In this document: positions 10,986 through 36,013 of the stretch, one piece after another
Position numbering within the stretch: position 1 is the stretch's first letter
Layout: each line of letters opens with the position of its first letter
From: an uncultured Mycoplasmatota bacterium
GTDB lineage: Bacteria; Bacillota_I; Bacilli_A; RF39; UBA660
Assembly: GCA_947652325.1 (NCBI GenBank)
Contig: CANTCQ010000005.1
Coordinates: forward strand, 4,727-68,726
Direction of reading: 5' to 3'
Length of the DNA: 64,000 nt
Notes under the pieces: model-generated
Told to the model about the DNA's origin: nothing
Databases searched by the model: none
Seen by the model: the letters and a program-made list of their open reading frames with translations, nothing else
Position numbers and translations under genes: made by a program

Positions 10986-13343
10986 TTATTCGTCACTAAA
11001 AAAGTCATCAAAAAATTCATCATCTGTAATAATATTATCATTTACTATAACACTGTCTACATCTATGTTAATTTTTGGTTTATTGGGTAATTCTTCTTGT
11101 GCTTTTGTTTTTTTCATCTTTTTTTCATTTATGAAGTCATTTGATTTCTTTTTGCTTTCTTGTACTTCTTCTTTGTTTAAAGGGGTATCTAAATCTAAAT
11201 TTGGAAATAAACTCATTTGTTCTATATTACTTTTTGCTGGTTCTTTCTCCTCTTTTATTGAATCAAGAATTTTATTTTCAAATTCTTCATTTTCAATTTT
11301 TGGATTTAATTTTGGTTCTATTTCCTCTCCAGAAGTATTTTTCGCTTTTTCCATTTTTTCTTTTTCTCTTGCTTCTTCTTCATCTAGTTCTTTTAATTTT
11401 TTATCAATGTCTGCAATCATTCGGTCAATGTCTTCATTAGACATTGGACCATTTTTTAAGAATGGATTTGGCATTCCTCCAAAAGGGTTTGCACCATTAT
11501 TATCTTTCATAAAGGGATTAGATGATGGCCCTGGAAAAGGAGGCATACCACTCATAGGATTCGACATATTTGGCATTCCAGGAAGTCCCATCCCTGGCAT
11601 ATCTTTGTTTTTTTCCAAATCTTCCATCATGTGTTTTCTTTTTTCTTCTGATACGTATTTTTTTACATCAAACAACGCAACTTCCCTAGTTTGTCTTTGT
11701 GGTAACTCGGCAGGCTCTCTTTTGATTCCCCAGTCCATTTTATAATCCGGTTCTAGCTTTGTCTTAAACGGATATTTCCGTAAACGAATAATGATAGCTT
11801 CAAAAAGTTTAAGCTTTTGTAAATCGGTTACGGTTACAAGTGGAGTAGATGCTGTTTTGTCTTTTTCTTTTGATTTGACTTCTCCACACATTTTACTAAT
11901 TTCTTCTAACGCTGCCATTTCAGTACTAATTAAATAAACCCAGTTTCCGCAGTTTCCTTTAATAACTTCTGCCACTTCTTTTCCATAAACATCATTTAAT
12001 TGGGCAAAGTTTTGAATAATAAAAGTAAATCGTATATCACGACTTCTAGCAGCACTTACCATAGAATCAACATCTTTTAAAGGTGGCATATTGGCAAACT
12101 CATCTAAAATAAAGTTTGTACGATAAGGTAGTTTTCCACCGTTTTCTTTGGCAACATCAATTAAAGTTTCATAACACTGTTTAATAAAAATAGTAAGTAA
12201 ACTATGATATGTTGTTTTTTCATCATGAATAATCATAAAAACCGCTGTTTTTTCTTTTCCTATTTCTCGCATATCAAAATCGCTATAAGAAAGCATTTCA
12301 CTTAAAATTTCACGAGAAGCAAAGGTACGAATCTTTTGTCTAAAAGTAGAAGTAATTCCACCTTGTGTGTCTTTCGGTGCATTAATTGTTCCAGATGCGA
12401 AAATATAAGCACTTGATGATTCACCCTTTAAATGGAAATATTCTTTAATATACGTACTGGCAGCAAATCTTTCTTCTCCTATACTACTCATATAATTGAT
12501 AGAGTTCATATTTACTTCTTCTTCTTTAGCATCCATAAATAGACCCAATGCAAGTCCAGAAAAATAATCTGCGGCACTGTTTTCCCAAAAAGGTTCTCCT
12601 TTATTATTAGGGTCACGAATAATATTTAAACCCACATCATCCAGAAGTTCGGTGGATTTATCCATATTGCCATTTTGGTAATATCGATATGGGAGAGTTA
12701 ATGGATTCCAAGCATTTCCATTTTTAGGGTCACGAAAGTTTAGAACAATAATTTTATAGCCCTGTTTTTTCAAATATTCGGCACTATATTCATAAATTTC
12801 TCCTTTAGGGTCGGTGATAATCATCGATTCTCCCTTTTTGGCAAGTAAATTTACCATTGGTTTTACAATCGTTTGGGTTTTACCAGAACCAGTAGAACCT
12901 ATGACCAAGTTGTGATAATCACCATTATCTACCCAAATATCTGTTCCATTGTTGATAAGAGGAATACCAGCAGCATCAACGTGTTTTTCATGGGCTGTTA
13001 CATGCTCTACGTTTTTATCTTCTTTAATTTCCTTGTCTTTACTCCAACGAGAGTATCCTTTTTCTTCTTTTTCCTTTACTTTTAAACCTATTCCATGCCC
13101 TTTTTCACGGTCAAAAATATAAGAAGAAACGGATGTAAAAATAACGATAAGAGCTGTAAAAAACATGAGCATAGTAAGTCCTAAATTACTTCCTACAAAA
13201 GCTGGAAAAGGATTTAATCCAGCAAACACTCCTTCGTTAAAAAAAGATGTAAAATTGACTACCGCAATTGCGCATAAATATAGCAAAAATAAACAAAATA
13301 CTATAAACGTTATAAAGTCTTTCGGTGATACTCTAAATTTCAT
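10986..13343 (-). CDS. type IV coupling protein (VirD4/TraG/TcpA-like) with long disordered C-terminal tail
   Basis: Two N-terminal TM helices, Walker A GSTGSGKTQT and Walker B-like FILDEFANMPP, then RSRDIRFTFIIQNFAQL. The ATG at 13343 follows a GGAGGAG RBS. Confidence 0.85.
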   Translation of the reverse strand: MKFRVSPKDFITFIVFCLFLLYLCAIAVVNFTSFFNEGVFAGLNPFPAFVGSNLGLTMLMFFTALIVIFTSVSSYIFDREKGHGIGLKVKEKEEKGYSRWSKDKEIKEDKNVEHVTAHEKHVDAAGIPLINNGTDIWVDNGDYHNLVIGSTGSGKTQTIVKPMVNLLAKKGESMIITDPKGEIYEYSAEYLKKQGYKIIVLNFRDPKNGNAWNPLTLPYRYYQNGNMDKSTELLDDVGLNIIRDPNNKGEPFWENSAADYFSGLALGLFMDAKEEEVNMNSINYMSSIGEERFAASTYIKEYFHLKGESSSAYIFASGTINAPKDTQGGITSTFRQKIRTFASREILSEMLSYSDFDMREIGKEKTAVFMIIHDEKTTYHSLLTIFIKQCYETLIDVAKENGGKLPYRTNFILDEFANMPPLKDVDSMVSAARSRDIRFTFIIQNFAQLNDVYGKEVAEVIKGNCGNWVYLISTEMAALEEISKMCGEVKSKEKDKTASTPLVTVTDLQKLKLFEAIIIRLRKYPFKTKLEPDYKMDWGIKREPAELPQRQTREVALFDVKKYVSEEKRKHMMEDLEKNKDMPGMGLPGMPNMSNPMSGMPPFPGPSSNPFMKDNNGANPFGGMPNPFLKNGPMSNEDIDRMIADIDKKLKELDEEEAREKEKMEKAKNTSGEEIEPKLNPKIENEEFENKILDSIKEEKEPAKSNIEQMSLFPNLDLDTPLNKEEVQESKKKSNDFINEKKMKKTKAQEELPNKPKINIDVDSVIVNDNIITDDEFFDDFFSDE

Positions 13344-13601
13344 ACTAACTCCTCCATTTGTCTTCCCTATTATACAATAAAAAAATATGAAATCAAAGTA
13401 CATTTCATACTAATTTTTGACAAATTTTTTTTTCCAATTTTTGTTTATCTAGGCATTTGTTTTCAAATAATACTTTTTTCTTAAATTATAGGGAATTTTC
13501 ATGATTAATTACAAGTACCTAATCATTTATAAAGTACGGTCTTTTACTTATCTCTTCTACAATTTCTAAACAAAGCTATTATATTTTCCTTTATACTTTT
13601 T

Positions 13602-14474
13602 TTACTTATTAACAGAAACTCTATAATCTAAAATCTTTTCTTCAGTAAAAGTATATTTATTATTGTTGATATCCACTATTTGATAAACTCTTTTTTCATC
13701 TTCGTTTACACTTTGATTACATGATTTTATTTCACTTGTAATATTATTTTCAAATATGTATGCTTTAAAATTTTCTAAGGAAGAAAAATTAGTTATTAAA
13801 GAATATGCGGTTTCTAATTCGTTATATACTTTCCAAATAAAATCGGAAATATACATAGAGCATATACTTGTATAATCTATTACGTCAATTTGCCTTATTT
13901 TATTGTCGTTATTAAAAAATATTTCTTTTTCTTTATTTTTTGTTTTTATAAAACTTTTTTCGTCTAAAGGAGAGTTTAATATACTTAAACTCATGGTCAT
14001 ATTTTCATAATCTACGAAAAGTAAATAATAAGCTTTTTCTTGAACAATTGTTGTTTTTTCATAGCCTTCATTCACAATTTTTCCTTCTGTATAATAAACT
14101 TCTACTTTATCGTTTATGCTTAAATATTTGGTTAATTCTGCTTGGTAAATATCATTTTGGTTATAAAATTTTATAGAATTAAGAAGGGTCGTTCTATTGA
14201 TATTTTTTTCTTGTTTATAACTTGTATCTAAAACGTTCAAAATTGCTTCTGTATTATTCTCTATTGTATTATTTATAAAATTATTTATATTTTTATTTAC
14301 AAAGAAAAATATATTATAATTGTTTACTATCGTAAATGTATTGTTTTCTTCTATAATTAAATCATCTTTCTTTTCTTTTTTATAAATATAAACACTGAAA
14401 ATTACTACGATGATTAAAAAAATTATCATTACAATTCCTAATTTATATACATCTTCTTTTCCAATTTTATTCAT
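13602..14474 (-). CDS. membrane-anchored protein, positional analogue of VirB8/TcpC-type channel components
   Basis: Single N-terminal TM plus a ~250-aa external domain. It sits directly after the wall hydrolase, as Orf13/TcpC does in Tn916/pCW3-type systems. The functional assignment is positional only. Confidence 0.35.
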   Translation of the reverse strand: MNKIGKEDVYKLGIVMIIFLIIVVIFSVYIYKKEKKDDLIIEENNTFTIVNNYNIFFFVNKNINNFINNTIENNTEAILNVLDTSYKQEKNINRTTLLNSIKFYNQNDIYQAELTKYLSINDKVEVYYTEGKIVNEGYEKTTIVQEKAYYLLFVDYENMTMSLSILNSPLDEKSFIKTKNKEKEIFFNNDNKIRQIDVIDYTSICSMYISDFIWKVYNELETAYSLITNFSSLENFKAYIFENNITSEIKSCNQSVNEDEKRVYQIVDINNNKYTFTEEKILDYRVSVNK

Positions 14475-14483
14475 TTTTTCTCC

Positions 14484-16583
14484 TTATTTACAACCATTAT
14501 TTGCATAGGCTAAAAATTCATTTGCCAATGATTCGTTTCTTCTTCCTTGACAAGCTTTTTGAATTGATGTCATGTCTGTTCCAGGTCGTTCATAATAAAC
14601 ACAAAAATTATAAGATGCCTCTACTGCAGAAGTTGTAGATAATACATGGGTTTTAGCATTTGCTTCAGAACCATTTAATTCACTTATAGCAAAAGCAACC
14701 TGTACTTCTGGTTTTGTGTAGTCATTTAGTGCTTTTAAGTTTTTTTGCCTTCCACCTCGCCATTGAAATAAACCATAAGCGCCCATTCCTCCACCACTTG
14801 GATTAAAAGCATTAGGGTTAAACCCTGATTCTCCATTTACATTCACCATTATACCTGCTGTTTGTGCTGGAGTATACCCAGCATTTAAAAAACCAACACA
14901 AACACTTTCCTTTCCAGAACCAGAACCTGAGGGAATAACATTGGGTAAATTTAATCCACAATTGGATGGTCTTGGATTACTTGGAGAAACATAGTTTAGA
15001 GGATTTACTGCCTTCCCATTTACTTTTACTTGGAAGTCCAAATGTACTCCATTTGATGCTCCAGTACTTCCCATTTTTCCAATAACTTGACCTCTTTTTA
15101 CTTGCATTCCTTTGGTAACATCGACTCGACTCATATGTCCATAGCGAGTAACTATACCTCCACTATGCTCTATGTAAATACCATTTCCTAATCCTGTTCC
15201 ACTAGAAACTTGTATTACTATACCATCTGCTACTGCAATAATATTAATATTTGTACCGCCTTCTTGGCCTCCTCCAATATCTATAGCTTGATGGTCTGTA
15301 GTTGCATTAGCAACTCCTTCTACTTGTCCTCGAAAACCAAATTGACTTGTTATTCTTGTAGATGCGGGAGTCCCAATAGCAAAAGTAATTCCATTTTCCG
15401 TTGTTGTTTCATTACTTCCTATTGGCCAAAACATACATCCATTTACTATAGCAATTAGATTTTTATTTCCTAAATTAGCATTTATATCAATCGTATTAAA
15501 CTCAATATCATAGCCAAAGTAATAATTTAATATACGATAGATATCATATTCTGCATTTTCTTTTTCTAAATTATATTTTGCACCGTATAAACTCATTGAT
15601 TCCAAATATTTCACTGTTATATTTCTTTGTTTTGGAATTTTTACATTTTTTTCTTTTTCTAAATTTTCTATCCATTTTGCAGGAATTCGTTGTATTTCTT
15701 CGTTATTTTTATGTGCCATATGATAATAATATAAACCATCTTGAGATGAATCTCCTTCATACTTTTTAGCCGTATAACTAAATGATTCATATTTTGCCGA
15801 AATAGCTTTTTTTTCTTTTGTCATAATTATTCCTTTAGATGCAACTACTGCCTGTGTAATTTCTGTATATTTTTCTTCAGTTCCATCTAATTCTTTAAAG
15901 CTTTTTGCTTGGTCATTATAATATTTTAATACAACACAGTTATCTGGTAAATTAGCAATCAGTCGACTTCTAGCCACTATTCCCATAGCTTGATATACAA
16001 TTTCATTATCTACATCTTTTGCATTATTATTATCTGTCCAAATAATCCCAGCAATATATTCATCAAATTCGTATTCTTTATAATCGTATCTATTCGAATC
16101 ATTAATATCTACTAATGTAGGGTCAGTTACTATGTGATACTCTTTATCTTTTTCATGAGCTTTTCTGTATGATTCTTTTTCCCAGGTTAAATATACTTTC
16201 CCACAAGCTGGTGTATCTTTATAATAAGCAGGTTGTGGATTTCCAATTCCCATAAAATCAAAATCCAATTGAAAGGAAAGAATACCAAGTAAAATTACAA
16301 AAATCATCAATCCTACGCCTACAACGACTCCTGCATGTTTTTTTAGAAAGTTTTTTAAACCACTTTTTACTTTTGCTTTTCCTTTTTTTATCGGAATATC
16401 TGTTAGTTTTGTATGTTTTGTTTTATTATCAATATCAGCATTTTGTGAATTTACTACTTCGGCATTTGCAGCGTTATTTATGGTAACATCTGCAGCTTTT
16501 CCTGTTTCTTTTAAAGCTTGTTCTAATAGTTCATCTTCTACCCCAAGTCTTTTTTCTTCTAATTCTTCCTCATTGAAATCCAC
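14484..16583 (-). CDS. three-domain cell-wall hydrolase (SpoIID-like + M23 peptidase + phage-tail-lysozyme-like)
   Basis: TM anchor, then a SpoIID-like segment YIAGIIWTDNN...IVYQAMGIVARSRL. The M23 motifs are HQAIDIGGG, GHMSRVDV and GSTGASNGVHLDFQV. The C-terminal GESGFNPNAF...GAYGLFQWRGGR is lysozyme-like. Confidence 0.8.
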   Translation of the reverse strand: MDFNEEELEEKRLGVEDELLEQALKETGKAADVTINNAANAEVVNSQNADIDNKTKHTKLTDIPIKKGKAKVKSGLKNFLKKHAGVVVGVGLMIFVILLGILSFQLDFDFMGIGNPQPAYYKDTPACGKVYLTWEKESYRKAHEKDKEYHIVTDPTLVDINDSNRYDYKEYEFDEYIAGIIWTDNNNAKDVDNEIVYQAMGIVARSRLIANLPDNCVVLKYYNDQAKSFKELDGTEEKYTEITQAVVASKGIIMTKEKKAISAKYESFSYTAKKYEGDSSQDGLYYYHMAHKNNEEIQRIPAKWIENLEKEKNVKIPKQRNITVKYLESMSLYGAKYNLEKENAEYDIYRILNYYFGYDIEFNTIDINANLGNKNLIAIVNGCMFWPIGSNETTTENGITFAIGTPASTRITSQFGFRGQVEGVANATTDHQAIDIGGGQEGGTNINIIAVADGIVIQVSSGTGLGNGIYIEHSGGIVTRYGHMSRVDVTKGMQVKRGQVIGKMGSTGASNGVHLDFQVKVNGKAVNPLNYVSPSNPRPSNCGLNLPNVIPSGSGSGKESVCVGFLNAGYTPAQTAGIMVNVNGESGFNPNAFNPSGGGMGAYGLFQWRGGRQKNLKALNDYTKPEVQVAFAISELNGSEANAKTHVLSTTSAVEASYNFCVYYERPGTDMTSIQKACQGRRNESLANEFLAYANNGCK

Positions 16584-16605: not shown

Positions 16606-18390
16606 CTATAGTCCTCCTCCAGAACCAAACGAGTCAAGTTCTTCTTGAGTAACTACAACATTAATTCGCATTCTTCTATTACCACAAATAAATAGTGCTT
16701 CCCCTTGATTATAGTATTTAATACTTTCTTTTTCTGCATCATTTAAATCAATTAATTTGCCTAAATCATCTGTTGCTTGTTTACGTAGTCCCATGATTAA
16801 GTAATATGAAGCATTATCAAATATTGCTTTTCCATGTACAAGCACATTTGGCGCTGCAAAGTCGGTTGGTTGTTGCGTAATGATAATTGTACCTGTATTG
16901 TATTTACGACTACGTCTTTGAATTTGTGCTAAGAATTCCGCACCTAATTCATTACGTGTTGATAAAAGTACATGTGCCTCATCCACGCACATTACAGTAT
17001 CAATATCTTTGTCTAAACACAAGCCCCATGCATATTTTAAAATGTTAAAGAATAATGCATTTTTGATATTTTCATCACTGTTCATAAGTTCACGAATATT
17101 AAATACAATAAAGTCGCTTTCAATATGCAAAGTCGTATGTCCTGTAAAATAATAACGCAGTTCTTTTACAAGCGGTCTTATTTTTAACTCTAAGCGCTCC
17201 ATAACATCTTTTTCATGTGTTTTTTCAGGCATTGATAAGAGTCTACCTTTAATTGTGGCATAAACATCATCAAATGTTGGATAATCGGCAGATGTTAATT
17301 TTGTATAATCGGTTTCGTAATCAATTTTATAACGTTTGTAAGTATCTTGTACGACTTCACTAAACATCGTTAAAACATCTTCTTCAATGGAAGGAGTATA
17401 GTATTTCATAAAAGCTTTTAGTTGTTGTAATGTTCTCGTTAAAACGGTATAACCAAGACCACTCTCAATTTCTTCAGCATCTGCATCTACAACTATTTCA
17501 AGAGGATTAATCATACCAAACTCTCCACCCTTACCAAGGTCTAGAAAGTCTCCTCCGACATTACGGGTCATTTCAGCAAGTTCACCTTCTGGGTCGATAC
17601 ATACCACTTTATATCCGTTTCTTAGGTGTCCTCGGATTAATAATTTTGCAGCGGTTGATTTACCACTACCACTTGTTCCTAGAATGATAATATTCGCATT
17701 ATTACGGTTATTCTCTTTTTTGATTTTAAATAAGAATTGGTTAAATAAAACCACTCCACCAGAGAAATCAACTCCAAATAAAATACTATTTCCTGGGTCT
17801 TTAATACTATCAAAAATAAAGGGGTACATGGCTGCAATCGTAACAGAAGGAATAGGAGTTCCTACACGATTTTCCACATCTTGTTTTGGAAAAATTGGAA
17901 TAATTGATTTTAATACTTTTTCTTGTTCGAACATTAAAGGAATACCACGCATGCCAAGCCCATCCAAGTAATTTCGAACTTGCATTTTTTTTAGTTCCAA
18001 TTCTTCTTTATTATCCGCAGAAATAAACAAATGCATTTGAAAATCAAAAATTCTTGCTTGTGTTGCTGCAAGCATTTGAATAAATTGTTCAAGAGATTCA
18101 TAATCCTGTCTAATACGTTCTTGAATCGTTCTATCATTTTCCGTTTGAAATCGTTGCTTTAAATCAGCAATTTCTTTATTTAACATTCTCTGTAAAGTAG
18201 AAAATTCAATGGGAATATGTTTTATCGCTACTTTTACGCCAGATATATTGGTAATATTAGCTAAATATCCTTCTGAAATAAATTTAGGATAAGAAACAAT
18301 GGTTAAAATCGCACAATATTTACCACTAATCATCATTTCTGTTGGTTTAAATTCTATGCCTTTCGGCGCTAATTGTGATTTTATATTCAT
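16606..18390 (-). CDS. VirB4-type T4SS ATPase (C-terminal and ATPase part)
   Basis: Walker A GTSGSGKST, Walker B VMCVDEAHVLL and RRSRKYNTGTIIITQQ, an architecture typical of TcpF/PrgJ/Orf16. Confidence 0.85.
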   Translation of the reverse strand: MNIKSQLAPKGIEFKPTEMMISGKYCAILTIVSYPKFISEGYLANITNISGVKVAIKHIPIEFSTLQRMLNKEIADLKQRFQTENDRTIQERIRQDYESLEQFIQMLAATQARIFDFQMHLFISADNKEELELKKMQVRNYLDGLGMRGIPLMFEQEKVLKSIIPIFPKQDVENRVGTPIPSVTIAAMYPFIFDSIKDPGNSILFGVDFSGGVVLFNQFLFKIKKENNRNNANIIILGTSGSGKSTAAKLLIRGHLRNGYKVVCIDPEGELAEMTRNVGGDFLDLGKGGEFGMINPLEIVVDADAEEIESGLGYTVLTRTLQQLKAFMKYYTPSIEEDVLTMFSEVVQDTYKRYKIDYETDYTKLTSADYPTFDDVYATIKGRLLSMPEKTHEKDVMERLELKIRPLVKELRYYFTGHTTLHIESDFIVFNIRELMNSDENIKNALFFNILKYAWGLCLDKDIDTVMCVDEAHVLLSTRNELGAEFLAQIQRRSRKYNTGTIIITQQPTDFAAPNVLVHGKAIFDNASYYLIMGLRKQATDDLGKLIDLNDAEKESIKYYNQGEALFICGNRRMRINVVVTQEELDSFGSGGGL

Positions 18391-20499: not shown

Positions 20500-20522
20500 A
20501 TAATCACCTTCTTTTTTTAAAA

Positions 20523-23700: not shown

Positions 23701-23731
23701 AAATAAAAAGGTAAAATGTTTTATTTTACCT
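23701..23731 (-). terminator. rho-independent terminator overlapping the stop of the 376-aa gene
   Basis: On the minus strand: AGGTAAAAT-loop-ATTTTACCT followed by TTTTTATTTT. The stop codon lies in the left arm. Confidence 0.55.
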
Positions 23732-28716: not shown

Positions 28717-29610
28717 TTATTCTACCCCCACATCTGCATTATAGTATTTCTCTCCACTTAATAAGAAATAACTATTAATGATAATAATCATATGAAGAAT
28801 AATTTTTACATACCAAACCTCTAAAAGTTCAATATAACTGTCCGTTCCGAGTAAAAATTGCATTGCCATCACAAGTAAAAACAGGGCAAGACCAAATGTA
28901 ATAAATCTTTTATGGAAATTTTTACGGTCGGCTTGGTCACGATAAACACCTTCTACTAAAGCATCAATATCTTGGCTCATATTTTCCAAAGCTTCTCCTG
29001 AATCCTTTGCTCCTTCTTTTGTGATTTGTAAAAAAAGTTGGTTCATATTTTTTACCATATAAAACGGATATTTTTCATTAAAGAATTCAATAGATTCGTC
29101 AATGGTTCCATTTTGATAAGACATTTCAATCATAGTTTTTACATCTTGCAAAACTGGGTCTTCTAAAATACCAGAATCTCTTACTCCTTCAAGACTTTTA
29201 ACAAAACTTTGTGTCGTTGTAAATTCCATAATGACATTGGTTGTATAAATTTGAATTTGTTCAAATATGAATTCACTGTATATTTTTTGATAGCGTAAAT
29301 ATGCAAGATAAGGAATAAAGGCAACAGCGATTAAAGCATAAATAATGGCTATAACAATATTATAGAAATAAAGATAAGAAATCCCTCCTGCAATACCTGC
29401 AAACATCACAATTTGACTTGTGTATTGTCTTACCGTAAATTCTTGCCCTAAGGATTTTACTTTTTCTCTTACTTCCTTATAACTGTAGGGTGCAAATTTT
29501 TCGTATGTGTCACGCACTTGCGTAATAAAGAAACGATATACATTTTCACCATTGTTTTGCCTGTAAGAAATAACATATATTCCTATGATACATAAAATTA
29601 TTAATTCCAT
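28717..29610 (-). CDS. TadB-like type II secretion system F-family platform protein
   Basis: Same topology as its neighbour. The ATG at 29610 follows an AGGTG RBS. Confidence 0.65.
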   Translation of the reverse strand: MELIILCIIGIYVISYRQNNGENVYRFFITQVRDTYEKFAPYSYKEVREKVKSLGQEFTVRQYTSQIVMFAGIAGGISYLYFYNIVIAIIYALIAVAFIPYLAYLRYQKIYSEFIFEQIQIYTTNVIMEFTTTQSFVKSLEGVRDSGILEDPVLQDVKTMIEMSYQNGTIDESIEFFNEKYPFYMVKNMNQLFLQITKEGAKDSGEALENMSQDIDALVEGVYRDQADRKNFHKRFITFGLALFLLVMAMQFLLGTDSYIELLEVWYVKIILHMIIIINSYFLLSGEKYYNADVGVE

Positions 29611-29630
29611 GTATAGCACCTACTTTCTTC

Positions 29631-30782
29631 TTATATGTTTTGTGCCATCGGATTTTTTGGCATGATTGGAGTTGTATTAACATTTAGGTTAGTATTTATC
29701 ATTCCTGTAGAGACTCCCATTGGCTTTTTTGTTCTAAATATATTTTCAGGAAGTATAATTCCTTGGATAGATAAATAATCTCTTAAATGTTTGGTTGGAT
29801 TATTTAAAGACATTTTTCCATCCATTGATTTTTGGTAGATAGTATTAGTTTTTGGATTGTTTTGTTCATCTACATAAAATTCACAGATTTCCATAATTTC
29901 TCTTTGAAATCTTCCTAATTCTTTGCTCATATATCCTTTTACATAAACTCCAATTTGCACATAACGATGAACCGTTGTTAAAAATTGTTCTACATCTTGA
30001 TTTGTTTCTAATAGACTGTACATACGCATTGGTATACTTGATGCTTTATCCGAATGAATAGTAGACAAAATATGATGTCCAGAAGATATGGAATTTCGAA
30101 CAGCAAGAACTGCCTCGGCACTACGAACTTCGGATAACAATATCCAAATGGGATTTTGCCTCATACAAGTAACTAATACATCTGTATAGGATGCAATATT
30201 ATTGGTTTTCATAGCTACTATATCACGGTGTGGAAAAATTCTATCCAAATGAAGTTCTAATGTATCTTCAATGGATATAATTTTTTCGTCTTCCTTTGTA
30301 GTACTCGCTAGGTATTTTACGAGTTCTGTTTTCCCAGAACCTGTTTCTCCACTTACAATAATATTGGCATGACCTTGTACACATTGTAATAAAAAATCAA
30401 GCAAATCTTCTGAAACGTATTGTTCATTTAATAATTTTTCTCGATTCAAGCGAATTTTTGCAGGTGTTTTCCGAATCAAACAAGCAATTCCATTGGTGGC
30501 AATCGAATCGTGTACAAAATTCAAACGTAATTCTGTTGATTCTGCATCTAAAAAAGGATGTGCCATATTGAATGTTTTTCCCATAACATTAGAGCATTGA
30601 AAAGCAAGTTTTTCCATTAAAGCATTGTTTATATCAGGTCGTTCTACTTTAAAAACACCACGAGAAAGGGTTTTTAACCAAACTTGTCCACCATTGCTAT
30701 AGGAAATATCTGTAACATCATCTTGTCTTAAAAATTCATCGATTGGTCCAAAGTCTAATTGCGAAAATATAGCATCATCCAT
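29631..30782 (-). CDS. CpaF/TadA (VirB11-superfamily) secretion ATPase
   Basis: Walker A GETGSGKT, Asp box IISIEDTLEL, Walker B PIWILLSEVR and His box GHHILSTIH. Confidence 0.85.
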   Translation of the reverse strand: MDDAIFSQLDFGPIDEFLRQDDVTDISYSNGGQVWLKTLSRGVFKVERPDINNALMEKLAFQCSNVMGKTFNMAHPFLDAESTELRLNFVHDSIATNGIACLIRKTPAKIRLNREKLLNEQYVSEDLLDFLLQCVQGHANIIVSGETGSGKTELVKYLASTTKEDEKIISIEDTLELHLDRIFPHRDIVAMKTNNIASYTDVLVTCMRQNPIWILLSEVRSAEAVLAVRNSISSGHHILSTIHSDKASSIPMRMYSLLETNQDVEQFLTTVHRYVQIGVYVKGYMSKELGRFQREIMEICEFYVDEQNNPKTNTIYQKSMDGKMSLNNPTKHLRDYLSIQGIILPENIFRTKKPMGVSTGMINTNLNVNTTPIMPKNPMAQNI

Positions 30783-31681: not shown

Positions 31682-32452
31682 TTATAATAATGTATTTCTA
31701 GCAATTTCTAGAAAAGCATTTTTTTCTGATTCAGTAAATGTTATTCCTTGCCATCTTTGCCAATCAGCTAAAATTTCATTTAAATAATGTGTCGAATTAT
31801 TTTTATATTCTCCATATAAATCATTTTTTATATTAAAATTATTCCTACACCATCCATTAGAATCTTTTGGACAATTTATATATTTTGATTGATACCAATT
31901 TTGTGCAGTAATAGACAATAAATCTGTTCTATTTGGAACTCTGGAATTTGAATTTTGATTATTATTTTGATTTGTCGAATTGTTGTTATTACTGCTCCAA
32001 TTATTACTATTCAAATCATTATCACCACTAGCGTTACTAGAATTACTTCCTTGTGCGCTCAATTCTAAAATTGCATCCACTTTATTTACAATATCAAATG
32101 TTGTTTGGTCTCCTGCTATAATGAATGTTTTTGTTTTGCTAGCTACCCTTACACTTACTTTTGGTGGTGCTTCGTAAATTCCATAAAAAGAGATTTCATA
32201 TGTATTTAAACTTACATTTTCTGAAAATCTTCTTAAAAAAGATTCAATAAATTTTTCTCTATCTATCTTTAGTTCTCCATATTCGCGATAATATCCATAA
32301 TTTACAGCATCTACCATTGCAGCTTCTGTAACCTCTTGAATCAAATAGTAATCTTCTGTATTTTGCGTTGTCACATTAGATATTAACATCATAATAACAA
32401 CGACAAATACTCCTAACATGATTAACCAATAACCCCAATATGTTTCTTTCAA
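31682..32452 (-). CDS. larger pilin-like protein with Asn/Ser-rich linker
   Basis: MKETYWGYWLIMLGVFVVVIMMLISN N-terminus related to the other pilin-like leaders. A ~110-aa domain is followed by an N/S-rich region and a C-terminal domain. Confidence 0.5.
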   Translation of the reverse strand: MKETYWGYWLIMLGVFVVVIMMLISNVTTQNTEDYYLIQEVTEAAMVDAVNYGYYREYGELKIDREKFIESFLRRFSENVSLNTYEISFYGIYEAPPKVSVRVASKTKTFIIAGDQTTFDIVNKVDAILELSAQGSNSSNASGDNDLNSNNWSSNNNNSTNQNNNQNSNSRVPNRTDLLSITAQNWYQSKYINCPKDSNGWCRNNFNIKNDLYGEYKNNSTHYLNEILADWQRWQGITFTESEKNAFLEIARNTLL

Positions 32453-32468: not shown

Positions 32469-35258
32469 CTACTTCCAAGCAGGACCAATACTAGAACCTA
32501 TTGCACCTGTCCACAAAGTCCAATTCGGATTTCGTTTTACTTCAGTGAAAAATCCTCTCGCTTGTCCTTCATCTAAGAATTTACTTGTACCATAAGCATT
32601 GGTTATATTATTTTGTGAATGATATGTTAAATCCTCTCTAACATATGTACCTGTTTCTTTGTTATAATCGCGAAGTTTTTTCATATTATTTGCATCCAAT
32701 ACATACGTATATTCTGCTTCTATATATATATTCTCACCTGTTGATTCTATTTCATTTCGAGTAAATTCACCTTTTTCACTAGTCCAGTTAGCTCCTAAAG
32801 TACGATTATTTGGATTAAATTCATTTCCAATTTTTCGATATACATATGTATCTTCTCCATTAAATATACAATTAATACAATATACATCACATTCTGGACA
32901 TTTTGGTTCAGGAGGAGTGTAATCACAATATTCTCCTACACATTCATAATCACATTCTGGACAATCTACTACATAAACGCAAACGTATTCTGTATCCACT
33001 CCTGTGGTTGCACCTATGGCATTGACAACTGTATCTAGACGTCCATTTCGACATCCTACATAATCATTGTATTGTCCTAAATTAGTGAAATTCAATTTCC
33101 ACTTGTAAACACCTGTTGGTGTATTCAAAGCAACCGGGAATACAGCACCTAAATAACTATAATTTTCTCTTATATTTTCTGGATTTGATACCGTATCAAT
33201 CGTACCATGTGGATAATTTGTTTGAAACTCTTGTTTATTAGCGTACTCGGCGGTTCCTTCTACTTCAATTTTACGATAATATAGATGGCTATTTAAAGTT
33301 GATATTTCTTCTGCTAGTGTTGCTTCATTGGTATTATTACATCCGTTTGCATCACAATATAAATAATTAACATTCTCTAAACCACCACTTGTATTCGTAG
33401 TATATTCATTATCAAGTGTTTTATTAGTACTATAAGTTGCGTTCTCACCTGTTATTGTTCCACCACCTGCAACTAATTCATAATTAATATTTGTACTATA
33501 TTGTTCTTGATAATCGAAATTAACAATTGCATCCAAACAAAGATTATTCACCCAATGATAACACTCATTCATATAAGCAATTGTTTGTTTTAAATCATTT
33601 AAAGCATTTGTTAAATTTTCTTTGGCTGTAGACACTTTTCCATCCCAATTTGGCTCTTCTATTGTTGATGGGTTAGCACTACATCCAGTATGTCTAACTC
33701 CATTTTCATAATAAGTAAATGATGTTTTATTAGCTTTTGTTCCCCATTCGTATTGGTCAGTATCTCTTTGTATTGGTCTTTGAATGCATTTTCCAGTATT
33801 ATTATCGCAGTCCAAAGTATATCCAGTATAATTTGATGATTTTAATTTATACATTGTATATGTATTATCATTGCAATCTGTTGTATCTGTTGTATCGTAT
33901 TCATTTGCCTCTCTTTGCGCTTTTTCCTTTTCTGCTTTTTTATATAAATTATAAGCATTTACTAAAGCTTCTTGCTTTGTTTTTACATCTTGTATAAAAT
34001 TTTCAATTAAAATTTGTGCTTCTTCTGAGTTTTTATTTGGATTTGTAGCATAACATGTTTTTTTAGCTTTTATTACTGTATTTTCTAATTCAAAATATCT
34101 TCCACTATCTGTATATTTGGCACCTGGCATAGTCATTTCATAATCTTCTTTACAATAAACTGTACAATATGGATTCTCTTGGCTTATTTGTCCGTCTAAC
34201 ATTTGATAGGTATTACCAGCTTCATCTTTATTGTTTAAAATACAACATTTAATATCTGTTGGTGCTTTTATTGACATATATTGACTATTTGGACTATCAC
34301 AATAGTTAGGTTTACTAATTGTTGTTTGTTGTTCACATTCACATAAATTTTCATTTGGTTCTTCATCACAATACGTTTTGTAATAATTACCACCAGTATT
34401 AGGTTCAATTACATCGCTAAATGTTTGTACAACTCTTCCACCAGAAATACTACTTGAATTATTTATACTATTTGATGAATTTGAAGTGTTTGTATTGATA
34501 TCTGTTATATAATAAGTATTTTGAATATTTTGTCCCGAACACTGTACTACTTTTTTTGGAATTCTTTGTGAATCACCATTTGGTGTACTACCATTTCCAT
34601 TATATATAGCATTGATTGTAAATTCGCAATCTCCTGGAATTGCAGATACAGTTATAGTTCCTGAGTAACCATTCCAATTTTGATTTGTTACTGTACATCC
34701 TGAACTGCAGGTAAACTCTACACTTTCTATAAAAGAGGACGCATGCACATTATATGTGACATTGGCTTCACTAGCACTTATTCTAAAAAATGACAAAGAA
34801 GAACTTGTATTTCCAGCATAAACTTGTGCTTCAGCAATTAAAGCATTTACTCTATTGGCAGCATTTCCTGAAACCGTAAGTCCTCCTGTATGATAACGCA
34901 ATGCCGCTGTTTTTTCTGCTTGTGTATAATTGGAACTTAAAATATATTCTATTGTCGCATCAGCAATTTCTTGGCATGTGAATGAATCTCCTCTCCAAGC
35001 TCCTCCTAAATGTTTATTTAAATCTCCACAATATGCATCATAATTTTTTCCGTCAACATTCATTGTTATACCATAATCTGAATGACATTGTCCCTCAACA
35101 GGATTTCCATTGGCATCTATTCCTGTATATTGAATATCACAATTTTGTGTACCATCTGTTGTTACTCCACCAGTTCCTGAAGCAGCAAAAACTTCTTCTG
35201 TACTTAAGTTTATTATTGTCAAACAAATTATAAACAAATATTTTATATTTTTAATCAT
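32469..35258 (-). CDS. 929-aa secreted Cys-rich protein (candidate adhesin or tip protein)
   Basis: Signal peptide ending VFA-AS. Many Cys, including CPECDYECVGEYCDYTPPEPKCPECDVYCINC. No wall-sorting or TM anchor. Confidence 0.6.
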   Translation of the reverse strand: MIKNIKYLFIICLTIINLSTEEVFAASGTGGVTTDGTQNCDIQYTGIDANGNPVEGQCHSDYGITMNVDGKNYDAYCGDLNKHLGGAWRGDSFTCQEIADATIEYILSSNYTQAEKTAALRYHTGGLTVSGNAANRVNALIAEAQVYAGNTSSSLSFFRISASEANVTYNVHASSFIESVEFTCSSGCTVTNQNWNGYSGTITVSAIPGDCEFTINAIYNGNGSTPNGDSQRIPKKVVQCSGQNIQNTYYITDINTNTSNSSNSINNSSSISGGRVVQTFSDVIEPNTGGNYYKTYCDEEPNENLCECEQQTTISKPNYCDSPNSQYMSIKAPTDIKCCILNNKDEAGNTYQMLDGQISQENPYCTVYCKEDYEMTMPGAKYTDSGRYFELENTVIKAKKTCYATNPNKNSEEAQILIENFIQDVKTKQEALVNAYNLYKKAEKEKAQREANEYDTTDTTDCNDNTYTMYKLKSSNYTGYTLDCDNNTGKCIQRPIQRDTDQYEWGTKANKTSFTYYENGVRHTGCSANPSTIEEPNWDGKVSTAKENLTNALNDLKQTIAYMNECYHWVNNLCLDAIVNFDYQEQYSTNINYELVAGGGTITGENATYSTNKTLDNEYTTNTSGGLENVNYLYCDANGCNNTNEATLAEEISTLNSHLYYRKIEVEGTAEYANKQEFQTNYPHGTIDTVSNPENIRENYSYLGAVFPVALNTPTGVYKWKLNFTNLGQYNDYVGCRNGRLDTVVNAIGATTGVDTEYVCVYVVDCPECDYECVGEYCDYTPPEPKCPECDVYCINCIFNGEDTYVYRKIGNEFNPNNRTLGANWTSEKGEFTRNEIESTGENIYIEAEYTYVLDANNMKKLRDYNKETGTYVREDLTYHSQNNITNAYGTSKFLDEGQARGFFTEVKRNPNWTLWTGAIGSSIGPAWK

Positions 35259-36013
35259 AATACTCTACTCCTTTTCTTTTTAATAAGAATCACAGTAGTA
35301 GCAACCCCCGAAATCAATACTACACTACCCACTAAATTGATAATTATAGCATTTTCTTGATATATTTTCTTTATTTTATTCCAGAAATTCTTATTTTCAA
35401 TTTCCTCTTCTTTTCTTTTTTCTTCTTTTTCTATTTTATAATCTTTCAATTTTGTTCTAAATTCATTTATAGATATATTTTCTACAGATAGATATTCTTG
35501 GCAATAATAGAATTCAGGGTTTTCTTTACAATCTCGCCATTCTGAAAACAAATTATATATTGGTGTTGTAAGAGAAATTTTACGAAATAATTCTCCTATG
35601 CAAGCTCCTTTATTAGAATAAATCTCCACTGTATAGGTAATTAATTGGTTTACATTTCTCGTTTGAAAGGAAGCAACTCCATCTTTTGTATCTTCATATT
35701 TAAATGTTACAACATTATTATCTATACTATTTTTTATTTGGACATATATATCTTCTGTTATATTTAGCACAGTAATATTAAAGCCTTTTATGTAATAATC
35801 TACTTCTGGAATCTTTCCATCAGCTCCTGGGTTATCAATATCCAAAACTTTCCCATCATAAATATCAACAGTTTCATAATTTGCTTTTACATTAGCAACT
35901 ATATTATTTATTTCTGCTTGTTCACTATAACTGCATGCACTTTCTGCTTGCACTATATTTGGAGTCAAAAATACAATCGCTAGTAAAAACAATTTTTGCA
36001 AATTTGTTTTCAT
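35255..36013 (-). CDS. first gene of the locus: secreted protein with C-terminal TM anchor
   Basis: Signal peptide (..NIVQA-ES), C-terminal hydrophobic helix plus a KKKRSRVL tail, and a 4-nt overlap with the next gene. Confidence 0.55.
   Translation of the reverse strand: MKTNLQKLFLLAIVFLTPNIVQAESACSYSEQAEINNIVANVKANYETVDIYDGKVLDIDNPGADGKIPEVDYYIKGFNITVLNITEDIYVQIKNSIDNNVVTFKYEDTKDGVASFQTRNVNQLITYTVEIYSNKGACIGELFRKISLTTPIYNLFSEWRDCKENPEFYYCQEYLSVENISINEFRTKLKDYKIEKEEKRKEEEIENKNFWNKIKKIYQENAIIINLVGSVVLISGVATTVILIKKKRSRVL

What the first reader, a model, noticed from the sequence alone, without database searches (positions are those of the whole stretch)
10986..36013. Contiguous T4SS plus complete Tad-like type IV filament locus with no relaxase or integrase in view
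Twenty-four same-strand genes have short or overlapping junctions.

The promoter-distal half encodes a coupling protein (GSTGSGKT; FILDEF), a VirB4 ATPase (GTSGSGKST; VDEAH), a PrgI/TcpE-like protein, a TrbL/VirB6-like polytopic protein and a SpoIID+M23+lysozyme-like hydrolase.

The promoter-proximal half encodes a CpaB-like protein, a CpaF/VirB11-family ATPase (GETGSGKT, IISIEDTLEL, GHHILSTIH), two T2SS-F platform proteins, a TadZ/CpaE-like ParA-fold protein, two small pilins and three larger pilin-like proteins.

I could not find a relaxase, recombinase, replication or partition gene, or a phage structural gene, in the whole 64 kb. The flanks are housekeeping genes, and no flanking direct repeats were seen by eye.

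Gram-positive T4SSs are generally described as lacking a pilus. The classic precedent for a T4SS paired with a type IV pilus is the thin pilus of the Gram-negative IncI plasmid R64. Tad pili have been linked to DNA uptake in Micrococcus luteus.

This locus could therefore be a pilus-assisted conjugation, DNA-uptake or effector-delivery machine of a kind I do not recognise as described.
Basis: partly seen in the sequence, partly recalled or inferred. Interest (0 to 1): 0.9.

Follow-up and report, generated by a model that had tools for sequence, protein, structure and literature searches.

The report
Chromosomal conjugation-type machine with Tad-like module
An uncultured, small-genome gut bacterium carries in its chromosome, between housekeeping genes, a relaxase-less copy of the DNA-transfer apparatus of Bacillus conjugative plasmids (pLS20, pAW63/pXO2 families), including a divergent pilus-assembly-like module that plasmid papers list as "VirB11 plus unknown genes".

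Summary
The observation largely holds. There are 24 co-directional genes. They include a CD1115-family coupling protein, a split VirB4, an M23+lysozyme hydrolase, a CpaB-like protein, a CpaF/VirB11-family ATPase, two paralogous T2SSF-like proteins (seen only by profile-profile comparison), a degenerate ParA/MinD-fold protein and five proteins sharing an M[KR]E..G leader. The 64 kb contain no relaxase, integrase, Rep/Par gene, tRNA, flanking repeats or prepilin peptidase, so "complete Tad" is overstated.

The pairing is not unprecedented. The same modules occur in the same order in the pLS20-family operon and both are present in pAW63/pXO2-type pBMB67. Papers on those plasmids call the ATPase "VirB11" and leave its neighbours unknown.

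What is new is the context. The locus sits at a conserved chromosomal site in hundreds of species-level genomes of uncultured gut Bacilli (probably order RF39), with host-like codon usage. Its proteins are as conserved as the neighbouring housekeeping genes.

The halves are separable in relatives. Some keep the pilus-like half plus hydrolase and coupling protein without VirB4. Others keep only the pilin-like genes.

Best reading: a vertically inherited, domesticated conjugation-type contact and transfer machine. Its substrate is unknown. It is a new variant of a known kind.

The parts
35255..36013 (-). 252-aa protein with an N-terminal signal peptide and a C-terminal membrane anchor; first gene of the array
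   Evidence: Sequence. No family hit. Orthologue in 19 related loci.
32469..35258 (-). 929-aa secreted, Cys-rich surface protein at the position held by the Tie adhesin or large surface protein in plasmid operons; putative adhesin (inferred)
   Evidence: Signal peptide and Cys clusters in the sequence. No family hit. Fast-evolving, 22-47% identity across relatives. Positional analogy with pBatNRS213, P. bifermentans and pBMB67.
31682..32452 (-). DUF5411 protein with an MKE..WGYW leader and hydrophobic helix; candidate minor pilin-like subunit
   Evidence: Pfam DUF5411 1.9e-55. Conserved N-terminus in 27 of 37 homologues. A similarly placed small N-terminal-TM protein lies in the plasmid operons.
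30817..31665 (-). CpaB/RcpC-like protein (SAF-type)
   Evidence: Pfam RcpC 1.6e-5 and TIGR03177 CpaB 1.5e-7, both below cutoff. BLASTp 4e-27 to the pBMB67 SAF-domain protein.
29631..30782 (-). CpaF/VirB11-family secretion ATPase
   Evidence: Pfam T2SSE 2.5e-26. NCBIfam VirB11 1.7e-30 and TadA conjugal-transfer-associated 1.3e-27. PDB: CpaF 1.8e-16, about equal to VirB11 at 9e-16. Best plasmid matches are Firmicutes conjugative plasmids.
28717..29619 (-). T2SSF-like (TadB/TadC-like) platform protein 1; the start is probably at 29610
   Evidence: hhalign of diverse family alignment A8 against TadB/TadC alignment A5: Prob 92.7%, E 4e-7. No Pfam, NCBIfam or PDB hit. BLASTp 8e-7 to the pBMB67 neighbour of the ATPase.
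27927..28715 (-). T2SSF-like platform protein 2, paralogue of the previous gene
   Evidence: hhalign against TadB/TadC: Prob 73%, E 3e-5. Against the g06 family: Prob 95%, E 3e-8.
27602..27853 (-). 83-aa pilin-like protein (MKEATGELNMT leader, hydrophobic helix, Cys-rich tail)
   Evidence: Sequence. The N-terminus is near-invariant in 125 of 132 homologues. No family hit.
27339..27578 (-). 79-aa pilin-like protein, paralogue of the previous gene
26849..27325 (-). 158-aa protein with an MREAIGGTW leader; DUF4320-like candidate pseudopilin
   Evidence: hhalign against plasmid DUF4320 proteins: Prob 64%, E 7e-5. No similarity to canonical TadE.
26364..26852 (-). 162-aa paralogue of the previous gene
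25365..26360 (-). Two-domain protein with a C-terminal SIMIBI (MinD/ParA-like) fold and a degenerate Walker A; TadZ/CpaE-like by position
   Evidence: AlphaFold2 pLDDT 72; Foldseek finds MeaB, HypB, MinD, ParF and FlhG. 5685 homologues found. 573 confirmed stretches in a collection holding one genome per species.
24907..25302 (-). 131-aa protein with a two-helix membrane hairpin; weak VirB2/T4SS-pilin-like
   Evidence: Pfam T4SS_pilin 6e-4, below cutoff. Mycoplasma ICE Mbov_0396 and MMCAP2_0566 families at 1.6e-4 and 4.6e-4. Alignment with the C-termini of two paralogues.
23726..24856 (-). 376-aa N-terminally anchored extracellular protein of unknown function
   Evidence: Sequence. No family hit. 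Conserved in 26 related ORFs.
22522..23652 (-). 376-aa secreted protein with a duplicated coiled-coil segment and a C-terminal VirB2-like hairpin
   Evidence: (123-nt internal repeat).
21414..22448 (-). 344-aa secreted Cys-rich protein with a C-terminal VirB2-like hairpin
   Evidence: (Mbov_0395 pilin-like family, 0.025).
20523..21398 (-). Polytopic membrane protein at the VirB6 position (N-terminal part of a gene that is fused in relatives)
   Evidence: Topology from the sequence. Fused 671-782 aa ORFs in L010, L011, L021 and L026. No TrbL/VirB6 profile match.
19318..20499 (-). C-terminal part of the split VirB6-position protein (393 aa with its own RBS and ATG)
18940..19251 (-). 103-aa VirB3/PrgI-like membrane protein
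   Evidence: Matches positions 2-96 of the Mycoplasma ICE VirB3-VirB4 fusion model (E 0.0055). pBMB67 has a PrgI-family gene at the same position.
18387..18950 (-). VirB4 N-terminal domain encoded as a separate protein (TraC-like)
   Evidence: PF26593 TraC-like. NF045975 positions 93-276, 3e-15. BLASTp 3e-17 to pBMB67.
16606..18390 (-). VirB4 ATPase
   Evidence: Pfam P-loop_TraG and AAA_10. NF045975 9e-105 and CD1110 family 1.7e-50. 81-94% identity among relatives.
14484..16583 (-). Cell-wall hydrolase (M23 endopeptidase plus lysozyme-like domain)
   Evidence: Pfam M23 2e-25, Phage_lysozyme2 5e-26, SLT 0.0024.
13602..14474 (-). 290-aa protein of unknown function between the hydrolase and the T4CP
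   Evidence: No family hit. A gene of similar size holds this position in Type II relatives.
10986..13403 (-). Type IV coupling protein (VirD4-like, CD1115 family) with a TraG-D_C domain
   Evidence: Pfam 1.5e-56 and TraG-D_C 8e-24. NF045973 at 302 bits, above the 250 cutoff. 62-64% identity in Type II relatives.

Best explanation
The locus is a chromosomally fixed, vertically inherited derivative of the conjugation apparatus of Firmicutes plasmids of the pLS20 and pAW63/pXO2 types. It has lost, or never had nearby, its relaxase, oriT, regulatory and maintenance functions.

It has two linked modules.
1. A divergent type-IV-filament-like module. It holds a CpaB-like protein, a CpaF/VirB11-family ATPase, two paralogous T2SSF-like platform proteins, two small pilin-like proteins, DUF4320-like and DUF5411 pseudopilin-like proteins that share an M[KR]E..G leader, and a degenerate MinD/ParA-like protein. 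Two secreted surface proteins precede it.
2. A monoderm T4SS closest to those of Mycoplasma ICEs. It holds three proteins with VirB2-like hairpins, a split VirB6-position protein, a VirB3-like protein, a VirB4 split into an N-domain and an ATPase, a peptidoglycan hydrolase and a CD1115-family coupling protein.

Inferred mechanism:
- The ATPase and platform proteins assemble a short filament or pseudopilus through the wall. It presents or supports the adhesin and makes contact with a target cell.
- The hydrolase opens the peptidoglycan.
- The coupling protein feeds a substrate to the VirB4/VirB6/VirB3 channel.

What is shown is the gene content, the homology to the plasmid operons, the conserved chromosomal site and the conservation. 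Filament formation, the substrate (DNA with a relaxase encoded elsewhere, or proteins) and the direction of transport are inferred.
For: Homology of both halves to plasmid conjugation regions:
- BLASTp to pBMB67: CpaB-like 4e-27, ATPase 3e-33, platform-like 8e-7 and 0.006, VirB4 N-domain 3e-17, VirB4 8e-91, T4CP 1e-71.
- phmmer to pLS20-family pBatNRS213: ATPase 2.5e-44, T4CP 1.7e-54, VirB4 2.8e-36.
- In the pLS20-family and P. bifermentans operons the order matches the window: adhesin, small N-terminal-TM protein, ATPase, two membrane proteins, DUF4320 or its unannotated counterpart, small proteins, then the T4SS genes. pBMB67 has both modules but with the T4SS block first.

Platform proteins and T4SS type:
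- T2SSF-likeness of the two membrane proteins.
- T4CP above the curated cutoff; VirB3, VirB4 N-domain and VirB4 tile one Mycoplasma ICE VirB4 model.

Chromosomal fixation:
- The flanks are TrpRS, TyrRS, LeuRS, UppP, PBP5, FtsW/RodA, RmuC and similar genes, with no mobility genes.
- No tRNA or att-like repeats.
- GC3 is 0.182 in the locus against 0.171 in the flanks. Codon-usage correlation is r 0.945.
- The same flanking genes adjoin the locus or its remnants in distant relatives.
- The ATPase is 75-93% and VirB4 81-94% identical across species. In the five Type II relatives the ATPase is 75-83% identical where flanking RmuC and UppP are about 70%.
Against: - No prepilin peptidase lies in the window. 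The pilin-like proteins lack the Flp G/xxxxEY motif and any Pfam pilin or TadE hit, so a filament is not demonstrated.
- The ATPase is equidistant from CpaF and VirB11.
- The VirB6 and VirB2 assignments are weak.
- In the window species the VirB6-position gene is split. This could be early decay.
- The T4SS block is missing next to the Tad-like half in many relatives, so the halves are not obligatorily linked.
- The rest of the genome could not be examined for a relaxase.
- The RF39 assignment rests on my memory of the GTDB placement of the named MAGs.
Confidence: 0.6

Rival explanations
1. The two halves are independent systems that merely lie side by side. One is an adhesion or colonisation pilus native to the lineage. 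The other is a separate T4SS cassette inserted between the pilus genes and the hydrolase/T4CP genes.
For: - Relatives keep the pilus-like half without VirB4. Of 27 long-flank loci that have the ATPase, 12 show no recognisable T4SS within about 10 kb and 3 show only the T4CP.
- Other relatives keep only the pilin-like genes and TadZ-like gene at the same site.
- Promoter-like 11/12 consensus matches lie in the g07-g08 and g12-g13 gaps.
Against: - Both modules also co-occur in unrelated plasmid families: pLS20-type, a P. bifermentans plasmid and pAW63-type pBMB67. This is hard to explain by chance adjacency.
- In Type II relatives the hydrolase and T4CP stay attached to the pilus-like half.
- The ATPase's closest plasmid-borne relatives are all in conjugative plasmids.
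- The promoter scan is not above the shuffle expectation (134 found against 115 expected).
Confidence: 0.2
2. The ATPase module builds no filament. It is a VirB11-type accessory sub-complex of a Gram-positive T4SS, and the small hydrophobic proteins are channel or stalk components.
For: - The ATPase scores slightly higher on the VirB11 model than on the TadA model. It matches VirB11 structures as well as it matches CpaF.
- There is no prepilin peptidase, no Flp motif and no Pfam TadE domain.
- Plasmid papers treat the ATPase as VirB11 and state that Gram-positive elements make no conjugative pili (PMC8557374).
Against: - Classical VirB11 has no T2SSF-type partner. Here two paralogous T2SSF-like proteins follow the ATPase and a CpaB-like protein precedes it.
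- Five proteins share a short charged leader ending in Gly followed by a hydrophobic helix, as in class III signal peptides.
- In relatives lacking the ATPase module, the pilin-like genes persist within a few kb of a canonical Tad cluster.
Confidence: 0.2
3. The locus is part of an active integrative conjugative element or integrated plasmid. Its relaxase, integrase and att sites lie outside the 64-kb window.
For: - The coupling protein retains the TraG-D_C (relaxosome-recognition) domain.
- All plasmid homologues of the system are accompanied by a MOBP relaxase.
- Only 64 kb could be inspected.
Against: - About 11 kb on one side and 28 kb on the other are core housekeeping genes with T-box leaders.
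- The same flanking genes adjoin the locus or its remnants across species that are 60-90% identical.
- There is no compositional difference from the flanks, no tRNA or repeats, and no relaxase match in 80 related loci.
Confidence: 0.08
4. The locus is a DNA-uptake (competence) organelle, like Flp-pilus-dependent transformation in Micrococcus luteus or the ComB T4SS of Helicobacter. It would serve a nucleotide-poor, genome-reduced lineage.
For: - The pilin-like genes are conserved across the lineage.
- The lineage is described as auxotrophic with reduced genomes (PMC12306168, citing Nayfach 2019).
- Flp-pilus-dependent transformation has a precedent (PMC4322843).
Against: - A conserved VirD4-type coupling protein is typical of export. 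It is absent from the known T4SS uptake system ComB; that statement is from my own knowledge.
- No ComEA, ComEC or DprA genes lie in the window.
Confidence: 0.1

Closest known systems
Conjugation operon of the pLS20 family (B. subtilis group plasmids, e.g. pBatNRS213; related plasmid in Paraclostridium bifermentans)
   Same: - Same order of parts: surface adhesin, small N-terminal-TM protein, 'VirB11-like' ATPase, two membrane proteins, DUF4320 protein or its unannotated counterpart, small hydrophobic proteins, then the T4SS genes (VirD4, VirB6-like, VirB3-like, a small protein and VirB4, wall hydrolase).
- ATPase, T4CP and VirB4 are homologous.
- The platform-like families are related.
   Different: - The plasmids carry a MOBP relaxase, auxiliary relaxosome proteins, quorum-sensing control and surface exclusion. 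The window has none of these.
- The T4CP lies at the far end here, not before VirB6.
- A CpaB-like gene and a MinD-like gene are present here but not in pLS20.
- No VirB8-like gene was recognised here.
- The locus is chromosomal and conserved across a whole lineage.
tra region of the pAW63/pXO2/pBT9727 family (seen here in B. thuringiensis pBMB67)
   Same: - It contains the SAF/CpaB-like protein, an AAA (ParA-type) ATPase, a T2SS/T4P-family ATPase, two membrane proteins, a small protein and DUF4320. It also has a CD1115-family VirD4, TrbL, PrgI and VirB4.
- Seven window proteins have BLASTp matches to it.
   Different: - The plasmid has a MobP3 relaxase, plasmid maintenance genes and insertion sequences.
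- The module order is reversed, with the T4SS first.
- Identities are only 21-31%.
Canonical Tad/Flp (type IVc) pilus systems
   Same: - A CpaF-family ATPase is followed by two paralogous T2SSF-like proteins.
- There is a CpaB-like protein, a MinD/ParA-fold protein, and several small proteins with a short leader and a hydrophobic helix.
   Different: - None of the platform-like, pilin-like or TadE-like proteins hit the Pfam or NCBIfam Tad models.
- There is no Flp G/xxxxEY motif, and no TadV/CpaA peptidase in the window.
- The Walker A of the MinD-like protein is degenerate.
- Relatives carry a separate, clearly canonical Tad cluster, so this module is a distinct family.
Mycoplasma ICE T4SS (Mbov_0395/0396/0397 families)
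   Same: - The best NCBIfam model for VirB4 is the Mycoplasma ICE VirB4 (9e-105).
- The VirB3-like protein and the VirB4 N-domain map onto the N-terminus of the same model.
- The hairpin proteins weakly match the ICE pilin-like and transmembrane families.
   Different: - The scores are below the curated cutoffs.
- VirB4 is split into three genes here.
- From my own knowledge, Mycoplasma ICEs carry a DDE transposase and no Tad-like module.
T4SS paired with a type IV pilus in Gram-negatives (IncI R64 thin pilus; PAPI-1)
   Same: In concept, a T4SS is linked to a type-IV-filament machine for mating contact (review PMC12857230).
   Different: - Those are type IVb pili in diderms, with secretins and PilS/PilV pilins. 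They are not homologous in detail.
- The 2025 review does not mention a Tad-like module, pXO2 or pAW63.

Membership tests
Canonical Tad/Flp pilus system | TadA/CpaF-subfamily ATPase | tested here: inconclusive
   T2SSE superfamily membership is clear. VirB11, TadA-like, TrbB and FlaI models all score below cutoff and close to one another. PDB CpaF and VirB11 match equally well.
Canonical Tad/Flp pilus system | Two T2SSF-domain platform proteins (TadB, TadC) | tested here: met
   Met only at the profile-profile level: Prob 92.7% (E 4e-7) and 73% (E 3e-5) against a TadB/TadC alignment, and the two families are paralogous at 95%. Pfam T2SSF is not hit by these proteins or by 10 distant homologues.
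Canonical Tad/Flp pilus system | Flp pilin with the G/xxxxEY processing motif | tested here: not met
   The small proteins begin MKEATGELNMTVV, with no EY motif and no pilin family hit.
Canonical Tad/Flp pilus system | TadE/TadF pseudopilins (Pfam TadE) | tested here: not met
   No Pfam hit. hhalign against canonical TadE gives Prob 0.7%. There is weak similarity to DUF4320 instead.
Canonical Tad/Flp pilus system | Dedicated prepilin peptidase (TadV/CpaA, peptidase A24) | tested here: not met
   No A24 family appears in any scanned ORF of the 64-kb window. The rest of the genome could not be tested.
Canonical Tad/Flp pilus system | TadZ/CpaE ParA-type protein | tested here: inconclusive
   Foldseek finds a SIMIBI fold (MinD, ParF, FlhG, HypB, MeaB) on a pLDDT-72 model. 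There is no sequence-profile hit and the Walker A lacks the lysine.
Gram-positive conjugative T4SS (pLS20 / pAW63 type) | VirB4 ATPase | tested here: met
   Pfam and NCBIfam hits. BLASTp 8e-91 to pBMB67 VirB4.
Gram-positive conjugative T4SS (pLS20 / pAW63 type) | VirD4-type coupling protein | tested here: met
   NF045973 (CD1115 family) scores 302 bits against a cutoff of 250.
Gram-positive conjugative T4SS (pLS20 / pAW63 type) | Cell-wall hydrolase (VirB1 analogue) | tested here: met
   M23 plus a lysozyme-like domain. The domain types differ from the SLT+NlpC/P60 of the plasmids.
Gram-positive conjugative T4SS (pLS20 / pAW63 type) | VirB6/TrbL-like polytopic channel protein | tested here: inconclusive
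   A polytopic protein sits at the right position, but no profile hit was found and hhalign to the pBMB67 TrbL shows nothing.
Gram-positive conjugative T4SS (pLS20 / pAW63 type) | 'VirB11-like' ATPase module with two membrane proteins and a DUF4320-type protein in the same operon | tested here: met
   Synteny and homology to the plasmid operons.
Gram-positive conjugative T4SS (pLS20 / pAW63 type) | Relaxase and oriT (self-transmissibility) | tested here: not met
   No relaxase family or tBLASTn match in the window or in 80 related loci. oriT was not searched for. The rest of the genome could not be tested.
Integrative conjugative element | Integrase or recombinase plus flanking att repeats, often at a tRNA | tested here: not met
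   No recombinase family, no tRNA, and only AT-rich chance repeats. The housekeeping flanks are conserved across species.

The most novel reading that the evidence does not exclude
Two linked claims remain possible.

1. The 'VirB11 plus unknown genes' block of pLS20-, pXO2/pAW63- and related Gram-positive conjugation systems may be a cryptic type-IV-filament machine that builds a mating filament. That would overturn the view that Gram-positive conjugation is pilus-free.

2. A whole order of uncultured, genome-reduced gut Bacilli may have domesticated this machine as a lineage-wide organelle for obligate cell-to-cell interaction. Possible roles are DNA or nutrient acquisition, or effector delivery to neighbouring bacteria. 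The parallel is Saccharibacteria, where both the T4SS and the type IV pili are essential for epibiotic growth.
Probability: 0.2. Interest if true: 0.85.

Novelty: new variant of a known kind. Interest (0 to 1): 0.6.

Why it matters
The finding gives a testable hypothesis in a tractable model. pLS20 genes 37-41 in B. subtilis may encode a Tad-like filament module and not a lone VirB11. pLS20-family work states that Gram-positive conjugative elements form no conjugative pili.

It also shows that an abundant, never-cultured gut lineage keeps a conjugation-type machine as a conserved chromosomal trait. That machine is a candidate organelle for how these auxotrophic bacteria contact and exploit other cells or exchange DNA. 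The RF39-focused papers I opened do not mention secretion systems, pili, conjugation or competence.

Tried and rejected
- The clostridial Pcp/Cst conjugation locus as the identity: rejected. The Cst paper lists no pilus genes or VirB11, and the best plasmid matches for VirB4 are Bacillus plasmids, not clostridial ones.
- Sequence-profile searches of the two platform-like proteins and the TadZ-like protein against the PDB gave nothing.
- The AlphaFold2 model of platform-like protein 1 reached only pLDDT 52, so it was not used for a fold search.
- A HMMER search of 1.84 billion representatives with the g06 profile found only 296 clusters. None of 10 distant full-length ones hit Pfam T2SSF.
- Shallow alignments of g06 and g07 against TadB/TadC were inconclusive: Prob 0.3% and 24%. 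Only the more diverse alignments gave signal.
- The hhalign results are inflated, because the pBMB67 sequence sat in both alignments. The clean g06 comparison gives Prob 48%.
- The VirB2-like hairpin family against pLS20 gene 45 showed no similarity. The VirB6-position family against the pBMB67 TrbL also showed none.
- The promoter scan is uninformative in this AT-rich DNA.
- One literature search was badly posed and wasted.
- I could not confirm with the tools that the named MAGs belong to GTDB order RF39.
- My first iterative-search script timed out.

Full report
**1. What is in the sequence**

The window has about 28% G+C. Between 10986 and 36013 lie 24 co-directional minus-strand ORFs. Their junctions range from -11 to +198 nt, and most are under 75 nt.

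The promoter-distal half gives firm profile hits:
- A coupling protein with Pfam T4SS-DNA_transf at 1.5e-56 and TraG-D_C at 8e-24. It scores 302 bits on the NCBIfam CD1115-family VirD4 model, above the 250-bit cutoff.
- A VirB4 ATPase.
- An M23 plus lysozyme-like wall hydrolase.

VirB4 is encoded in pieces. The 103-aa, 187-aa and 594-aa products map onto positions 2-96, 93-276 and 294-891 of a single model, the Mycoplasma ICE VirB3-VirB4 fusion.

Three proteins share a two-helix membrane hairpin: one of 131 aa and the C-termini of two secreted proteins. The hairpin hits Pfam T4SS_pilin and Mycoplasma ICE pilin-like families only weakly.

The polytopic protein at the VirB6 position has no profile support. 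In this species it is split into two ORFs with their own ribosome-binding site. Relatives have one fused ORF of 671-782 aa. No SpoIID domain was detected.

**2. The promoter-proximal half**

The ATPase is a clear T2SSE-superfamily member. It sits equidistant from CpaF and VirB11. The CpaB-like protein has specific hits, but they fall below the curated cutoffs.

The two following membrane proteins hit nothing in Pfam, NCBIfam or the PDB. The family is small: 296 clusters among 1.84 billion representatives. Ten distant full-length members also fail to hit T2SSF.

I therefore assembled bona fide TadB/TadC sequences from six proteobacterial plasmids. I compared them, profile against profile, with diverse alignments of the two families.
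- The first family gives Prob 92.7%, E 4e-7, over the T2SSF cytoplasmic domain.
- The second family gives 73%, E 3e-5.
- The two families are paralogous at 95%, as TadB and TadC are.

The 'TadZ-like' protein models, at pLDDT 72, as a two-domain protein whose C-terminal domain matches SIMIBI NTPases such as MinD, ParF, FlhG, HypB and MeaB. Its Walker A lacks the lysine.

Five proteins share a short M[KR]E..G leader followed by a hydrophobic helix. They are the two small ones, two of about 160 aa, and the DUF5411 protein. The leader is almost invariant across more than 100 homologues.
- They have no Flp motif and no Pfam TadE domain.
- The 160-aa pair resembles plasmid DUF4320 proteins weakly.

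No prepilin peptidase is present in the window. The module is thus type-IV-filament-like, but it is not a canonical, complete Tad system.

**3. No mobility functions**

Flank ORFs encode TrpRS, TyrRS, LeuRS, UppP, a PBP5-type carboxypeptidase, FtsW/RodA, a MurJ-like flippase, RmuC, thioredoxin and similar proteins. Two T-box leaders are also present.
- No relaxase, recombinase, Rep or Par family was found. A few flank ORFs had no family hit at all.
- tBLASTn with the pBMB67 MobP3 relaxase and the pLS20-type relaxase finds nothing in the window or in 80 related loci.
- There are no tRNAs and no credible flanking repeats.
- GC3 is 0.182 in the locus against 0.171 in the flanks. Codon usage correlates at r 0.945.

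**4. The pairing already exists in known plasmids**

The best plasmid matches of VirB4 are B. thuringiensis plasmids. One of them, pBMB67 of the pAW63/pXO2 family, carries two gene sets:
- a MobP3 relaxase, a CD1115-family VirD4, TrbL, PrgI and VirB4;
- a block made of a SAF/CpaB-like protein, an AAA ATPase, a T2SS/T4P ATPase, two hypothetical proteins, a small protein and DUF4320.

Seven window proteins match pBMB67 ORFs by BLASTp.

The ATPase's best plasmid matches are all in Firmicutes plasmids: the pLS20 family, Paraclostridium, Enterococcus, Listeria, Lactococcus and Bacillus. The annotated pLS20-family operon has the same order as the window: Tie adhesin, small protein, 'VirB11-like' ATPase, two membrane proteins, DUF4320, small proteins, then VirD4, VirB6, a VirB3-like protein, VirB4 and the hydrolase.

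How the literature describes these genes:
- The pAW63 paper calls the ATPase VirB11 (PMC1196294).
- The pLS20-family paper lists genes 38-45 as unknown and states that Gram-positive elements do not form conjugative pili (PMC8557374).
- A 2025 T4SS review mentions neither Tad nor these plasmids.

The architecture is therefore known. Reading it as Tad-like appears not to have been made in the searchable literature.

**5. The context is new**

Identical proteins occur only on metagenome contigs. The TadZ-like protein has 5685 homologues. These genomes are gut MAGs labelled uncultured Bacilli, Tenericutes, Mycoplasma sp. CAG:776, Ca. Ventrenecus and Ca. Caccenecus. From memory these belong to GTDB order RF39. 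I could not verify that with the tools.

Across the 80 closest species representatives the chromosomal site is conserved, but the content varies.
- Type I has the full array, as in the window.
- Type II has the pilus-like half followed directly by the hydrolase, one gene and the T4CP, then the same rhodanese/RmuC/UppP flank. The VirB2-to-VirB4 block is missing.
- Type III has the pilus-like half followed by other genes.
- Type IV has only the pilin-like, DUF4320-like and TadZ-like genes, next to the same CAAX-protease/phosphoesterase flank as in the window.

Some Type IV loci have a separate, clearly canonical Tad cluster about 6 kb downstream. It hits Pfam TadE at 8e-12, ParA, T2SSE at 1e-58 and T2SSF at 1.6e-10.

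Of 40 loci with long flanks on both sides:
- 12 have the ATPase and VirB4 contiguous;
- 3 have the ATPase plus the T4CP only;
- 12 have the ATPase but no recognisable T4SS within about 10 kb;
- 13 lack the orthologous ATPase.

Conservation is high. The ATPase is 75-93% and VirB4 81-94% identical across species. In the five Type II relatives the ATPase is 75-83% identical where flanking RmuC and UppP are about 70%.

**6. Interpretation**

The most economical reading is a vertically inherited, compositionally ameliorated derivative of a pLS20/pAW63-type conjugation apparatus. It is kept under purifying selection in a genome-reduced gut lineage, and different sublineages have pruned it differently.

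Mechanistically I infer three steps:
- a filament or pseudopilus plus an adhesin for contact;
- wall opening by the hydrolase;
- T4CP-fed transfer through a VirB4/VirB6/VirB3 channel.

The substrate is unknown. It could be DNA with a relaxase encoded elsewhere, or proteins.

The rival readings are listed with their tests: two independent neighbouring systems, a VirB11 accessory complex that makes no filament, an ICE whose ends lie outside the window, and a competence organelle.

**7. Verdict**

It is wrong that the kind is undescribed.

This is a new variant of a known kind. Interest is moderate to high for two reasons. It reframes a block of 'unknown' genes in model Gram-positive conjugation systems. 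It also points to a conserved contact machine in a major uncultured gut lineage.

Noticed in passing
window 19318-21398: The VirB6-position gene is split into two ORFs (291 aa and 393 aa) in different frames. The junction has an A7 run, an AAGGTGA ribosome-binding site and an ATG. The same junction occurs in contigs of the same species from other samples. Relatives have one fused ORF of 671-782 aa.
   Followed up: yes
L038, L040, L041, L043, L044 (about 11000-16500 in each): In these relatives the pilus-like half is followed directly by the hydrolase, one gene and the coupling protein. The VirB2-like to VirB4 block is absent, so a conserved T4CP (62-64% identity) has no adjacent VirB4. Whether VirB4 lies elsewhere in those genomes is unknown.
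   Followed up: partly
L053 16543-20489 (also L057, L071, L072, L074, L075, L087): Relatives that keep only the pilin-like and TadZ-like genes at this site have a separate ATPase cluster a few kb downstream. In L053, the only one scanned, it is canonical Tad (Pfam TadE, ParA/AAA_31, T2SSE, T2SSF) and is separated from the pilin-like genes by Obg and a MutS fragment. The orphan pilin-like genes might be served by that machine.
   Followed up: partly
window 22874-22996 and 23195-23317: A 123-nt internal direct repeat (71% identity) lies inside the 376-aa secreted protein with the VirB2-like tail. It corresponds to a duplicated coiled-coil segment.
   Followed up: no
window 42889-43077 (-) and 57377-57561 (-): Two T-box leaders score above the Rfam gathering threshold. 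The first is about 580 nt upstream of the TyrRS start, an unusually long distance. The second is upstream of a 125-aa ORF and LeuRS.
   Followed up: no
window 38280-38720 (-): A CotZ-like spore-coat protein (Pfam 2.8e-13) occurs in a lineage often labelled Tenericutes or Mycoplasma. This fits published predictions that RF39 may sporulate and has peptidoglycan. PBP5, FtsW/RodA, UppP and MurJ-like genes are also in the window.
   Followed up: no
window 27882-27910 and 25333-25361 (- strand): Near-consensus sigma-70-like sites (11 of 12 positions) lie in the gap before the first pilin-like gene and in the gap between the TadZ-like gene and the first VirB2-like gene. They are possible internal promoters separating the modules, but the scan as a whole is not above chance in this AT-rich DNA.
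   Followed up: no
L090 14147-14459; L091 21235-21638; L009 35728-35997: Plasmid operons carry small proteins (two 47-aa copies each in the pLS20-family and P. bifermentans plasmids; one of 89 aa in pBMB67) sharing a D[RK]xxW-hydrophobic core. They may be the plasmid counterparts of the pilin-like proteins. No similarity test to the window's small proteins was run.
   Followed up: no
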